DNA of 64,000 nt. Origin: Octopus vulgaris (taxonomy: Eukaryota). Position numbers and translations under genes: made by a program. The DNA lies in NCBI GenBank assembly GCA_951406725.2, contig OX597817.1, positions 70,370,001 to 70,434,000 on the forward strand. The letters run 5' to 3'. Positions 20,675 to 58,931 of this stretch are shown one piece after another. The stretch's first letter is position 1. Each line of letters starts with the position of its first letter. The notes beneath the pieces were generated by a model. That model saw only the letters and a program-made list of their open reading frames with translations, was not told the DNA's origin and did no database searches.

Positions 20675-21165
20675 AGTTCTATATTTACAGTTCTATTATT
20701 TACATTAGACAGATATTTGTCCTCATCTTGTTTTTTGTTAACACATTTCAGCTGATATAGCCTCCAGCCTTCTTCAGGTGTCTTGGGGAAATTTCGAACC
20801 TGGGTTCTCATTCCTAAGGTATTTTTTGATGTTATAATTATTATTATTGTTAAGGTCATTGCTTGAAATCGAACTCGGAATCTTGGGGTTAGTAGCCCGT
20901 GCTCTTAACCACTATGCCACGGGCATATGGCATAGTGGTTAAGAGCGTGGGCTATTAACCCCAAGATTCTGAGTTTGATTCCAAGCAGTGACCTGAACAA
21001 TAACAATAATAATAATAACAACAACATCAAAAATACCATAGGAACGAGAACCCAAGTTCAAAATTTCCCCAAGACACCTGAAGAAGGCTGGAGGCTATAT
21101 CAGCCAAAACGTTGTGTTAACAACAAACAAGATGAGGACAAATATCCATCAAATGTAAATTATGT
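20675..21165. mobile_element. Fold-back element: head-to-head tRNA-like head + (AAT)n + hammerhead-like module, 13-bp TSD
   Basis: Arms ~20695-20919 and 20928-21160 are reverse complements; TSD AAATTGTTAGTAC at 20662-20674 and 21166-21178; A box TGGCATAGTGG and B box GTTYGATTYC. Confidence 0.85.
21073..21118 (+). ncRNA. Degenerate minimal type-I hammerhead ribozyme (C3:G8 core)
   Basis: GACAC-CTGAAGA-A-GGCTG[10]CAGCC-(G>A)AAAC-GTT-GTGTT; stem I GACAC/GTGTT, palindromic ACGT stem III; the mirror copy at 20740-20782 keeps GAAA. Confidence 0.65.
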
Positions 21166-21919
21166 AAATTGTTAGTACTTTCTACAATAGCTCCATATCA
21201 ACCAGACTTGTTAGTGGATTTGATAAACAGTAAATAAAAGAAGCCCAGCATAGATGTGTGTTTCTGTGTGTGTGGGTGTATGTGTGTGCATGCGCACGTG
21301 TTTATATATGCTTGTTTCTATTTGTGTTGTTCCAGAACTTTCAGCAACAGATAGAGGTGTTGCTAGCATTACTTCTGCAGAAAAATTGTCCACTGGTTTT
21401 GTGTTTTTTGAAAATGTGTAGATTAAAAAATCCCTTACTTGAAAAACAGGTAAATGTGAGTGAAAGGAAGGGTACCCAGCTGTAAAACAATGCCTGAAGG
21501 ATATATATTCATCTAATCCATGCTAACATGGAGAAATGTAAAGAGCAGTGATCACCTGTATCATAAGCAAAACAAGAATGATACCTCCCCATTCACTCTT
21601 TCAAAGAAGATGGGAACTGAAGGACACTACAGTATGATGGTAGCACTCAGTTACAACCGTCATCTGATATCAAGATAAAGGAGACACCAACCCAACCCCC
21701 ACACGAGTACATACTGGTGCTCCAGCATGGCTACAGCCACATGGCTGAAACATCAAAGAATAAAAATACAATAGGCTTGCTTCAGTTTCTGGCGCCCCAA
21801 TTTCACTTCAAAGGAGTTGGCATGCACTTGGACTTTCCCTGGTGCCATGTGGTTTGAAACCAAGCTTCTCAACCATGCTAGCTTGCACTTGATATACGTA
21901 TATATTTTTTTTTATATCG

Positions 21920-22117
21920 CCCTTTTCAAGTGAGCAGGCCAACAGAAGAAAGAGTGGTGAAAGAGTACAGCAGGGATCACCACCCCCTGCAGGAGCCTCG
22001 TGGAGCTTTTAGGTGTTTTCGCTCAATAAACACTCACAACGCCCGGTCTGGGAATTGAAACCGCGATCCTGCGACCGCGAGTCCGCTGCCCTAACCACTA
22101 GGCCATTGCACCTCCAC
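21920..22117 (-). mobile_element. tRNA-derived SINE family D (octopus OR-like)
   Basis: Head GTGGAGGTGCAATGGCCTAGTGGTTAGGGCAGCGGACTCGCGGTCG..GGTTTCAATTCCC; copies at 23760-24067 and 60300-60602. Confidence 0.85.
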
Positions 22118-22157
22118 ATATATATATATATATTATATATATAAATATATATATATA

Positions 22158-22408
22158 TTGTGTCGGTGGCACATAAAAACACCATCCGAGCGTGGCCGTC
22201 TGCCAGCCTCGTCTGGCACCTGTGTCGGTGGCACATAAAATCACCCACTACACTCTCGGAGTGGTTGGCGTTAGGAAGGGCATCCAGCTGTAGAAACACT
22301 GCCAGATCTGACTGGCCTGGTGCAGCCTTCGAGCTTGCCAGACCCCAGTTGAACCGTCCAACCCATGCTAGCATGGAAAGCAGACGTTAAACGATGATGA
22401 TGATGATA
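22158..22408 (+). mobile_element. RTE 3' UTR fragment (family C), young CpG-rich copy
   Basis: GGTTGGCGTTAGGAAGGGCATCCAGCTGTAGAAAC..CGTTAAACGATGATGATG. Confidence 0.85.
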
Positions 22409-23149
22409 TATATATATATATATATATATATATATATATGTGAAAGTGAAAATATGTGTTAATGTGTAAACAAAAAATATAGGGAGATAATGTCACACAG
22501 TATGATGTGCGCATGGAACCACTCATTCAGCAATGGTAAACAATATTCCTATTTACACATACACATGCATTTAGAAAACAGCACAATCACACAGAAATAA
22601 ATACACATAAACTTGTGTGCGAATATACTGATGTACACATGTATATATATATATATATATATATATATGTATGTAGAACACTAACACATTATATGCAAAG
22701 GATACTGGGGTGTCAGTTTCCAGGGGTAAACATGTGACATAGGAAGCGTAATTTGAAAAATAAACAGAAAAAAACAGAAGTTGAGAAAGTTTCAAAGAGA
22801 TGAAAGGAGCAAGAACCTACAATAGACATTTTTCCTTTAAAAACAATGTATATAGCAAGGAATGTGTGTGCGTGCATGTGTGTATGTCTGTGTGAGTGAG
22901 ATGTATGTGAGAGAGAGAGAGAGAGAAAGAGCAAGAGTGTGTGTATGTATATGCTTGCATGTGTTTGGGTGGGTGATGGGTGTGCATATGTAAGGCGTCA
23001 GCAATGCAAGTTGTCTTTCCTGCCACACATTACAAGTGCATCAGGCAAGAGAGTATGCACGTTTGTGTATCTACAAATGTGTGTTTGAGTATATATATAT
23101 ATATATATATATATATATATGTATGTATGTGTGCGTGTGTGTGTGTTTG

Positions 23150-56869: not shown

Positions 56870-57180
56870 AAAAAGTAAAGACCCCCTTCAATCATGCACC
56901 TAGAATGTCACTCTCCAAGGCACAAGTCAGGCAAGGTTGTTTATGGATGGCCAGCAGTCACCCATGCATACCAGCCTCGCTCCTCAATGCCACTAATGTT
57001 ACCCAAGGGAAAGGCAACTGCTGATACAGCTTGGCACCAGTGACCTCGCAACTCATTTCTACAGCTGAGTGAACTGGAGTAACGTGAAATAAAGTGTCTT
57101 GCTCAAGAACAAAACACACAGCTCAATCCAGGAACTGAACTCACTACCTCATGATTGTGAGCCCAATGCTCTAACCATAA
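56870..57180 (-). mobile_element. SINE family E
   Basis: Colinear with 6415-6761. Confidence 0.8.
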
Positions 57181-58094
57181 CCCTTCAAGATATATATATA
57201 TATATATATATATATATAATGTGCATGTGTCTTTTATGCTTCTCTCTCACTATTACTTAACAAATGGAGCTGTCTGTTTGTTTACATCTATGTAACTTAG
57301 TTTAGCAAAAGAGACCAACAGAATAAGTACCACACTTAAAAAAATAAGTACTGGAGTCAATTCATTCGACTAAGAATTTTTCAAGGCTGTACCCCAGCAT
57401 GGCTGCAGTCTAATGACTGAAACAAGTAAAAGATAAAAGATATATAAATACATACACACATAATGTAAATATATATATATATATATATCCCTCAATTACT
57501 GACTAAGAACCTGGAAAAACATCCAGCCCATGGAAAGCAGACATAAAATGATGATGATGATTATAATATATATAACATGGAAGCATACTGGGTACTTCTA
57601 CTCAACCCATCCCACCACTGGGTTTCCCTACTCAACCCACATCATCCCTCTTACAACTTTGTCCCTACTCTCTTTCACATTAATCCTTGACATTACTCTT
57701 CCCCTCTTCCTGTCTCCTCCATTATTCAACCCCAACACTGTTCCTTCTGTTAACCTTTCCATGACAATCCTCTCACAATAATAAATCTGTTTCTTACATC
57801 AGACTTTAACGTGTACTCTTCCAGTTATAAGGGTTCTCTTTTTACCTTGCAAGCTACAAGGCCATCCTTGTTGGGGTATTGCCAAGAAAAAAAAAAGACA
57901 CAAAAGCACCCAGTACACTCTGAAAGTGGTTGGTAAATCAAACTGAATTGTAACAATGCAGGTCTTGAAGGGGATCTTCAGTTAAACATAGTGTTGATGC
58001 CATGAAAAAGGCACCCAGTACACTCTATAAAGTGCTTGATGTCAGAAAGAACACAGAGCTATAGAAACCATGCCAACACTGAGAGTATAAAATA

Positions 58095-58426
58095 GAGATT
58101 CTTGACAATTTTTTATCAATGGACTCCTTTGATTACTATATTATTCTGGTGAACCCCCATAGCCATTCAATGTTTAAAAAATCATTTTATTTACATTTCT
58201 TTCTAAACTTCTATTTTTCTTATACACTCATTCACTTGTACAGGTCCAACAACAGAAAATGTTAGAGAAAGTAACTTAGCCATTTCTTGCAATACATATG
58301 TTAAATCAAAACTTTTCATGGATCCTTAAAATACTAGTGCCGATTCCCAATTTATTATGTTGCTACCTTGGATCCCCCAAAACCTTATATGTGCCCCTAG
58401 GAGTCATATGGTTGAGAACCAATGGT
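58095..58426. mobile_element. Possible hAT/Charlie-like MITE
   Basis: Right end GGTTGAGAACCAATG resembles the CAGTGGTTCTCAACC TIR; left end decayed. Confidence 0.4.
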
Positions 58427-58766
58427 TTAGAACATAATGTGGTCAGCCAAACAGTCAGATCTTGTCAAGTCAGCCAACCAGTGCCAACATGGAAAACTGA
58501 TGATAAAATTATGATGATAATGCAAAATGAAAAAAGCCACATATGCCATAAACCAGACTACTGTGATACAACACCAAAGAGACTAACTCAGAAACTAGAA
58601 GCATTAACCTTATAAGAAATAAAGGAATATTATTCTTTTACTAACTCTGAATAAGAACTGATGCTAACTACACGATCCAACATTTTCCATGCATGTCAGG
58701 ATAGAAAATTAATGTAAAATGATGAGGACACAAATACATATATACATACACTTATATAGATATATC

Positions 58767-58931
58767 TTGTGTCTTGGGAGGGTCATTATGAAAATAATAA
58801 TAAACACACATGCTGTGTGTGTTTCTTAATTTTATTATTCTAGGCACAATGACCATCCCAAGACTCAACAAGATTTGTTTCAAAACATGAATTCACATCA
58901 AGAATCTTGCAAACCAAATACAAAAACAAAT
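58767..58931. mobile_element. Short fold-back element of the 25042-25376 family
   Basis: Arms TTGTGTCTTGGGAGGGTCATT and AATGACCATCCCAAGACTCAA plus the same AAGAATCTTGCAAACCAAAT extension. Confidence 0.7.

What the first reader, a model, noticed from the sequence alone, without database searches (positions are those of the whole stretch)
20675..58931. Recurrent architecture: unrelated palindromic insertions with hammerhead folds covarying at pair 3:8
Seen: five fold-back insertions (20.7, 25.0, 27.5, 45.2 and 58.8 kb) from four sequence families share inverted arms, four of them with a one-sided extension. Four carry an N-UGA-N-N-R..GAAA module with C:G, C:G, G:C and U:A at positions 3:8, and three have an extra purine after position 9. 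Two PLE ORF relics lie in the same window. Inference: a dense, diversified population of PLE-derived ribozyme variants, which would also be long dsRNA substrates in a lineage known for extensive ADAR editing.
Basis: inference. Interest (0 to 1): 0.75.

Follow-up and report, generated by a model that had tools for sequence, protein, structure and literature searches.

The report
Penelope retrotransposon fold-backs with hammerhead ribozymes
The five palindromes are short, decayed insertions of very abundant repeat families, two of which are the ribozyme-bearing ends of protein-coding Penelope jumping genes; each was likely doubled head-to-head as it inserted, which would silence its ribozyme and make long double-stranded RNA, and such fold-backs cover about 1% of the sampled genome.

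Summary
Five fold-backs are real, all five have a one-sided tail, and four families have a type I hammerhead core with C:G, U:A, C:G and G:C at 3:8. They are short insertions of Penelope-like element (PLE) ends. Two families run into RT + GIY-YIG ORFs elsewhere in the genome; every family has two discrete 3' ends and copy-specific junctions, the known PLE signature. Architecture, U3:A8, the extra base and opposite-strand pairs are published. Corrections: the window is not unusually dense (45 fold-backs per Mb, 1.06% of 1 Mb sampled); covariation is between families only; inside a fold-back the hammerhead is predicted not to form, so these are mostly fossils. ADAR editing was not shown. Less ordinary: a natural G3:C8 core in a family of roughly 10,000 copies, and a tRNA-like A/B-box segment about 120 nt ahead of the start codon of one coding PLE whose 2.6-kb sense strand has no T4 run (possible Pol III transcription). 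The scan noted that segment and ADAR traces before, on other DNA of this genome.

The parts
20673..21163 (.). Family A fold-back: head-to-head pair of pLTR copies of an RT + GIY-YIG PLE; tail remnant on the left (20673-20694)
20928..20981 (+). tRNA-like segment with A box (20928-20938) and B box (20973-20981); mirrored at 20919-20865 on the minus strand
   Evidence: relaxed ARAGORN 9 of 30 copies against 1 of 300 shuffles; no call at default settings and no Rfam tRNA hit
21073..21118 (+). Family A minimal type I hammerhead, C3:G8 (C3 21078), extra A after A9, G12 mutated to A in this copy, predicted cut after 21113; the minus-arm copy (C3 20777) lacks 3 nt at the cut site
25035..25375 (.). Family B fold-back with tail 25312-25375; 3' end of an RT + GIY-YIG PLE
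25130..25180 (-). Family B hammerhead core, U3:A8 (U3 25166, A8 25161), extra G; stem I decayed in this copy
27510..27729 (+). Family D fold-back between (TA)n runs with tail 27660-27729; no coding parent found
27593..27646 (+). Family D type I hammerhead, C3:G8 (C3 27600), U10.1.U11.1, 4-bp stem III in the family consensus, predicted cut after 27638
45240..45579 (+). Family C fold-back with tail 45525-45579; no coding parent found
45393..45443 (+). Family C minimal hammerhead, G3:C8 (G3 45400, C8 45405), extra G, 7-bp stem I, palindromic stem III, predicted cut after 45436
58766..58930 (+). Family E fold-back (58766-58875) with tail 58873-58930; truncated downstream of its family's decayed hammerhead-like core
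12410..13500 (+). PLE ORF relic (RT thumb, linker, GIY-YIG) with stops and frameshifts; relatives carry a C3:G8 hammerhead about 600 nt downstream of the GIY-YIG match
43598..43810 (+). Second PLE ORF relic (C-terminal end of a GIY-YIG-type protein)
   Evidence: weak: 3 other matches at E 2e-4 to 7e-4

Best explanation
Each palindrome is a short insertion of a high-copy repeat family whose unit is a hammerhead motif followed by a fixed tail, shown for two families to be the terminal repeat of a protein-coding Penelope-like retrotransposon, and it was likely doubled head-to-head during insertion by that element's enzymes. Inferred mechanism: the GIY-YIG domain cuts both strands of AT-rich DNA; reverse transcriptase starts on uncleaved element RNA at two fixed internal sites 25-70 nt apart; the two cDNAs run towards the RNA 5' end or stop early and are joined at their inner ends. 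One arm therefore carries a tail that the other lacks, and the junction differs in every copy. The hammerhead was presumably selected in the master elements, where each family kept a Watson-Crick 3:8 pair by a different route. In the fold-backs a read-through transcript in either direction makes the antisense arm first, so the ribozyme is predicted to be locked in a 70-230 bp hairpin. The genomic copies are thus mostly silent fossils and candidate ADAR substrates.
For: Shown: each family is genome-wide (2006, 4545, 1275 and 1057 first-look candidates). Family B copies L068 and L073 continue upstream into an RT-thumb + GIY-YIG ORF (GIY-YIG Pfam E 0.004, below cut-off). Family A lies directly after the stop codon in 22 of 30 ORF-bearing copies, the ORF has RVT_1 (E 7.7e-9), and the hammerhead part also precedes the ORF start in 17 of 30 N-terminal copies, a partial tandem. 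Two discrete 3' ends per family: D 30 of 30 main arms at 144-150 and 30 of 30 inverted arms at 72-83; B 30 of 30 at 202-213 and 17 of 19 at 142-152; C 10 at 152-159 and 20 at 210-221; A 17 at 256-265 and 10 at 285-288. Family D has 22 different junction strings in 28 parsed copies. Solo copies exist: inverted arm in 20, 19 and 21 of 30 copies of A, B and C. (TA)n flank at 31 of 45 random fold-backs against 12 of 90 control segments; family-level hammerhead in 10 of 45 against 1 of 90. Stems I and II are the predicted minimum-energy fold of the A, B and C consensus and have probability 0 in the full fold-back. Family A varies mostly at free position 7 (19 A, 11 T). Published: inverted truncated copy and one-sided tail (PMC8557442, passages), two internal RT start sites, both strands cut, cleavage not needed for insertion (PMC11167929, parts 1-2 of 4).
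Against: No coding parent was found for C or D (none among 30 loci each; the tail-only search returned nothing), so their PLE origin rests on architecture. The 30 loci per family are the best matches to the window copy, not a random draw, and the D query was itself a palindrome. Tails here are 25-70 nt against 30-40 nt in the papers. 35 of 45 random fold-backs got no family-level hammerhead at my threshold; some show cores by eye, others may be other elements. Single window arms fold no better than shuffles (z -0.25 to -1.23). No cleavage or editing was measured.
Confidence: 0.9

Rival explanations
1. The palindromes are miniature inverted-repeat DNA transposons (MITE or Foldback type), and the hammerhead-like words are chance.
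For: Long inverted arms, TA-rich targets, Tc1/mariner relics in the window.
Against: Solo arms are common, the tail is one-sided, junctions differ between copies, two families join RT + GIY-YIG ORFs, and motifs exceed shuffles.
Confidence: 0.03
2. The whole fold-back is the mobile unit: a hairpin RNA or retrozyme-like circle with two working ribozymes is copied as one piece.
For: All 30 family D loci are palindromic; D has a hammerhead with a real stem III. Earlier scan notes report edited hairpins copied back into DNA, which would need hairpin RNA as template (not confirmed here).
Against: D junctions are copy-specific (22 strings in 28 copies). The two hammerheads are on opposite strands, so one RNA holds only one, and its stems are predicted not to form. 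No same-strand arrays of monomers starting at the cut site were seen.
Confidence: 0.07
3. Family A short copies are an independent tRNA-derived SINE that borrows PLE enzymes, separate from the coding element.
For: A+B boxes in 21 of 30 heads against 1 of 300 shuffles; 21 of 36 arms that reach the head begin within 17 nt around the A box; short copies outnumber ORF ends 15 to 1 in 1 Mb.
Against: The same head sits directly behind the ORF stop in 22 of 30 coding copies and ahead of the ORF start in 8 of 30, so it is part of the coding element's pLTR. B, C and D also have preferred 5' ends without such boxes.
Confidence: 0.2
4. The fold-backs are kept by the host as regulatory dsRNA or ribozyme modules.
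For: Family sequences are abundant in RNA reads (9072 of 12.9 million reads on the family A reference); octopus has exceptional hyper-editing and dsRNA potential (PMC5625713, passages).
Against: Arms differ by 9-27% with ordinary transitions; cores are hit like the rest (G12 73-90% conserved in A and C); no locus-specific expression was shown.
Confidence: 0.05

Closest known systems
Endonuclease-positive Penelope-like elements with inverted 5'-truncated copy and one-sided tail (Craig et al. 2021, PMC8557442; passages read)
   Same: Partial tandems, head-to-head inverted copy, tail at one end, microsatellite targets, hammerhead in the pLTR.
   Different: Here most copies are pLTR-only fold-backs of 130-500 nt from many families; tails are 25-70 nt; octopus families with hammerheads are not described in the passages read.
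Minimal hammerheads of metazoan PLEs (Cervera and de la Pena 2014, PMC4209133; parts 1-2 of 4 read)
   Same: Type I, palindromic or missing stem III, extra base between 9 and 10.1, G10.1-C11.1, U3-A8 variant, pairs 100-700 bp apart on opposite strands, many families per genome.
   Different: G3:C8 is not reported in the parts read; family D has a 4-bp stem III and U10.1.U11.1 (that mismatch is known from other natural hammerheads, PMC3088659 section 8).
Anole Poseidon element PAc (Frangieh et al. 2024, PMC11167929; parts 1-2 of 4 read)
   Same: ORF overlaps the hammerhead; two RT start sites define the tail; both strands cut at AT-rich DNA; the engineered C3G/G8C core partly restores cleavage.
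   Different: Family A has a tRNA-like A/B-box segment about 120 nt before the start codon; family C carries G3:C8 naturally.
Schistosome Sm-alpha SINE-like elements (second-hand, passages of PMC6765202) and TRIMp3 elements Helenus and Ajax (PMC10886601, passages)
   Same: A tRNA-type Pol III promoter joined to a hammerhead, or placed inside a terminal repeat.
   Different: Those are non-coding; in family A the segment belongs to the terminal repeat of an RT + GIY-YIG coding element.
Hyper-edited repeats: palindromic frog Harbinger and lizard Penelope (Porath et al. 2017, PMC5625713; passages)
   Same: Self-folding repeats as ADAR substrates; octopus has the highest hyper-editing and dsRNA potential in that survey.
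   Different: Octopus was left out of the repeat-level analysis there, so its source of dsRNA was not assigned.

Membership tests
EN+ Penelope-like element | Single ORF with RT and C-terminal GIY-YIG | tested here: met
   Family A: RVT_1 E 7.7e-9, GIY-YIG-type end read by eye only (no Pfam hit). Family B: RT motif and YIGET motif, Pfam GIY-YIG E 0.004 below cut-off.
EN+ Penelope-like element | Coding parent for families C, D and E | tested here: inconclusive
   No shared upstream ORF among 30 C and 30 D loci; tail-only search empty; E loci not checked for an ORF.
EN+ Penelope-like element | pLTR formed by partial tandem (same repeat before and after the ORF) | tested here: met
   Family A: after the stop in 22 of 30, before the start in 17 of 30. 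Not tested for B.
EN+ Penelope-like element | Inverted 5'-truncated copy and tail at one end | tested here: met
   inverted arm in 20, 19, 21 and 30 of 30 copies of A, B, C and D; two discrete 3' ends in each.
EN+ Penelope-like element | Bias for AT-rich or microsatellite targets | tested here: met
   31 of 45 fold-backs against 12 of 90 control segments.
EN+ Penelope-like element | RT groups with a named PLE clade; intron in the pLTR | not tested
   No tree was built; the labels Poseidon-like and Neptune-like are recalled resemblances.
Minimal type I hammerhead of PLEs | Core N3-UGA-N-N8-R9...GAAA...UH with paired 3:8, stems I and II | tested here: met
   Consensus of A, B, C and D. No Rfam hammerhead model matched the stretches scanned closely, and none was among the 150 rows shown of 590 for the window.
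Minimal type I hammerhead of PLEs | Extra base after 9, G10.1-C11.1, palindromic stem III | tested here: met
   Met in A, B and C; D differs (U10.1.U11.1, 4-bp stem III).
Minimal type I hammerhead of PLEs | Self-cleavage as a dimer or with protein help | not testable with these tools
   RNA-seq showed no pile-up of ends, which fragmented libraries would not show.
MITE / Foldback DNA transposon | Constant symmetric termini and constant interior, moved as one unit | tested here: not met
   One-sided tails, solo arms, copy-specific junctions.
Non-LTR retrozyme | Same-strand tandem monomers, each with a hammerhead | tested here: not met
   Pairs are head-to-head on opposite strands; a few same-strand neighbours occur but no arrays were seen.
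tRNA-derived SINE (family A only) | A and B boxes at the 5' end and no internal T4 | tested here: met
   21 of 30 against 1 of 300; no T4 in the consensus.
tRNA-derived SINE (family A only) | Non-coding unit distinct from its autonomous partner | tested here: not met
   The unit is the coding element's own pLTR and holds its start codon.
tRNA-derived SINE (family A only) | Transcription by RNA polymerase III | not testable with these tools
   Sequence signs only.

The most novel reading that the evidence does not exclude
Penelope insertion chemistry has filled the octopus genome with over 100,000 self-folding inserts that are the main source of its exceptional dsRNA and ADAR hyper-editing, and the most abundant family is a protein-coding retrotransposon transcribed by RNA polymerase III from a captured tRNA promoter, with its whole 2.6-kb coding strand purged of Pol III terminators and its start codon reading through the ribozyme.
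Probability: 0.2. Interest if true: 0.8.

Novelty: new variant of a known kind. Interest (0 to 1): 0.45.

Why it matters
The core finding is known biology seen at unusual scale. Three points would matter if confirmed. First, fold-backs cover 1.06% of 1 Mb sampled, more than the 0.44% of loci with long near-perfect dsRNA potential reported for another Octopus species by a different method (PMC5625713), so they are a concrete, testable candidate for why octopus RNA is so heavily edited. Second, natural C:G, U:A and G:C cores in one genome argue that the hammerhead's catalytic fold, not just its sequence, was selected in active PLEs, although cleavage is dispensable for insertion in vitro. Third, a coding retrotransposon run from a tRNA promoter would be a link between autonomous elements and SINEs.

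Tried and rejected
Rfam scan of the window was swamped by microsatellite hits; close scans of family A gave no hammerhead or tRNA; ARAGORN at default settings found no tRNA in the window or 30 loci. The repeat finder showed only (TA)n pairs. The tail-only search for unbiased D copies returned nothing. Folding single window arms gave no signal over shuffles. No RNA holder on record was listed for the 20.7 kb stretch. RNA reads laid on family A and on the 45.2 kb element came from another species label than the best DNA holder and were mostly under 95% alike: about equal on both strands, no pile-up of starts or ends. Places with A>G or T>C against C>T or G>A were 121:89 and 68:40 in run X21 and 42:37 and 33:30 in DNA contigs; not tested statistically and confounded by decay of the reference, so no verdict on editing. 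No A>G hyper-edited genomic copy among 241 A, 90 B, 67 C, 57 D arms and 85 ORF pieces. T4 absence is only suggestive: 0 observed against 3.2 under codon shuffling (P 0.015), 4.6 under base shuffling (P 0.007) and 2.3 under dinucleotide shuffling (P 0.09); G4 runs are also absent, and A-rich family B ORF pieces had none in 169 and 291 codons. The family A parent consensus has a few alignment-made gaps. Lunse et al. 2017 on small PLE hammerheads is not held and was not read, so natural G3:C8 may be in print; searches for it found only engineered C3G/G8C. No supplements were read; those of PMC4209133 and PMC13282606 may list such cores or these families.
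Full report
Setting. The window lies on a 177-Mb contig of a 2.8-Gb genome, AT-rich and full of (TA)n runs. That it is an octopus is my inference from genome size and repeats, in line with earlier scan notes. No host gene was recognised among 263 stop-to-stop frames of 70 aa or more, read by eye; 13 of them were scanned with Pfam and gave mostly transposase fragments.

Observation. Self-BLAST confirms fold-backs at 20695-21163 (A), 25035-25318 (B), 27516-27664 (D) and 45240-45527 (C); the one at 58766-58875 (E) is short and decayed. 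All five have a tail on one side.

Chance. I fetched 100 tiles of 10 kb at round-number positions. They hold 45 fold-backs of 80 nt or more, 10,586 bp or 1.06%. The same filter finds 5 in the window, where about 3 are expected, so the window is ordinary. A strict descriptor hit 2 of 45 against 0 in 50 shuffles; over the whole Mb it gave 14 hits with a Watson-Crick 3:8 pair and 6 without, against 4:1 and 0:3 in two shuffles. A descriptor allowing one mismatch hit 5 of 45 against 0.18. Counting relatives, 10 of 45 fold-backs belong to a family with a hammerhead against 1 of 90 control segments, and 31 of 45 have a (TA)n flank against 12 of 90. 35 of 45 stay unassigned at that threshold, though several show cores by eye.

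Families. Each window element has over 1000 first-look candidates; 30 top loci per family were studied, and these are the closest matches, not a random draw. In the random Mb, A has 15 loci, C 5, D 3 and B-like 8, of which 3 are close: roughly 40,000 A copies and about 10,000 each of the others by extrapolation. The unit is 140-290 nt: hammerhead, spacer, tail. In the consensus, stems I and II are the minimum-energy fold for A, B and C; D has a competing fold but all three stems are possible. Positions 3 and 8 are the same in 28-30 of 30 copies of each family; family A varies at free position 7.

Origin. Five of 30 B loci share upstream sequence; the two longest run into an RT motif and a YIGET endonuclease motif. 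Family A follows the stop codon of an RT + GIY-YIG ORF in 22 of 30 coding loci and precedes the ORF start in 17 of 30. The ORF starts 34 nt before C3 and reads through the hammerhead, much as in the anole element (PMC11167929). No parent was found for C or D. The window's two ORF relics belong to other families; three of 20 loci related to the 12.4-13.5 kb relic share one C3:G8 hammerhead about 600 nt downstream.

Mechanism. Shown: two discrete 3' ends in every family, inverted arms of variable length, copy-specific junctions (22 strings in 28 D copies), solo copies. Published: the inverted truncated copy and tail are PLE hallmarks (PMC8557442, passages); purified PLE protein cuts both strands and starts reverse transcription at two internal sites that bound the tail, using uncleaved RNA (PMC11167929, parts 1-2 of 4). 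Inferred: each fold-back is made at insertion from two cDNAs. All copies studied keep the sequence 5' of the predicted cut, which fits an uncleaved template. Because the arms meet head-to-head, any read-through RNA makes the antisense arm first; predicted pairing of the hammerhead stems in the full A, C and D elements is 0, and 72-88% of bases pair in A-D. A PLE hammerhead dimer needs two copies on one strand, which a fold-back does not give.

U3-A8, the extra base, palindromic stem III and opposite-strand pairs 100-700 bp apart are in PMC4209133 (parts 1-2 of 4); U3-A8 and U10.1-U11.1 are in PMC3088659 (passages and section 8). I found natural G3:C8 in no paper that I could search, but the 2017 survey of small PLE hammerheads was not available. 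Two octopus repeat papers mention Penelope elements but hold no word for ribozyme, palindrome or editing in the main text (PMC13282606, PMC8967140; term search and passages). ADAR editing remains an inference: RNA reads gave family-level presence only and no hyper-edited genomic copy was among 540 arms and pieces. PMC5625713 (passages) makes it plausible, since lizard Penelope and a palindromic frog repeat are heavily edited and octopus was left out of the repeat analysis.

Family A promoter. Between the stop codon and the hammerhead lies a tRNA-like segment: A+B boxes in 21 of 30 copies against 1 of 300 shuffles, relaxed ARAGORN calls in 9 of 30 against 1 of 300, and weak profile matches to the heads of other abundant repeats with such boxes. 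Of 36 arms that reach it, 21 begin within 17 nt around the A box, 5 run further upstream and 10 stop inside; a small hairpin at that spot could also stop reverse transcriptase. The 2.6-kb consensus has no T4 run (P 0.007-0.09 by null), whereas 7 control loci with T-richer PLE ORFs had 4-15 and family B units had 6-9 including UTRs. No paper title or abstract start on Pol III transcription of a PLE came up (listings only, 20 of 36 shown). I put Pol III transcription of the short RNA at about 50% and of the coding RNA at about 25%. Earlier scan notes reached the same reading on other DNA; they are not independent support.

Other papers seen: PMC6765202, PMC10886601 and PMC6155905 as passages; bioRxiv 10.64898/2026.07.22.740005 part 1 of 5.

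Verdict. A real feature, correctly read as PLE hammerheads, mostly known; new variants in the G3:C8 core and the tRNA-like segment; a testable link to octopus RNA editing. Interest 0.45.

Noticed in passing
window 20745-20755; family A loci: A 3-nt deletion at the predicted hammerhead cut site occurs in about 25 of 189 family A arms, including the window's left arm, and in 281 of 3890 RNA reads of run X21; only 1 of 49 B arms and 1 of 58 C arms have any deletion there. It is in frame and lies in a short GT repeat, so slippage, a subfamily or a cleavage scar are all open.
   Followed up: partly
L214:96, L219:8667 and 9029, L222:8363: A further family with a U3:A8 hammerhead, no extra base and a palindromic stem III.
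   Followed up: no
L268:2599, L233:5108, L215:7082, L252:5417; L237:5566-6013; L236:8181-8518; L206:8839-8947: More C3:G8 hammerhead families, one with a stem II loop of about 100 nt.
   Followed up: no
L179:7518-7669, L191:7750-8297, L251:705-1209, L252:5708-6227: A group of related fold-backs with tails and (TA)n flanks but no hammerhead core found; could be a hammerhead-less PLE clade.
   Followed up: no
window 27510-27729; L091-L120: Family D is the youngest family (fewest substitutions), nearly always inside (TA)n, with only the loop of stem II and position 7 varying between subfamilies; best candidate for an active monomeric ribozyme.
   Followed up: partly
window 41709-41930: A possible third PLE ORF fragment resembling the RT-endonuclease linker, by eye only; no Pfam hit.
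   Followed up: no
window 28839-29490, 44488-44888, 9463-9850, 61033-61245: Tc1/mariner-type transposase relics; weak Pfam HTH hits for three of the four.
   Followed up: no
window 507-755: A sixth inverted pair (97 nt, 78%) passes the fold-back filter; no hammerhead motif.
   Followed up: no
L364 (612-codon open frame), L365 (583 codons): Long open PLE frames of the family related to the 12.4-13.5 kb relic; candidates for recently active copies.
   Followed up: no
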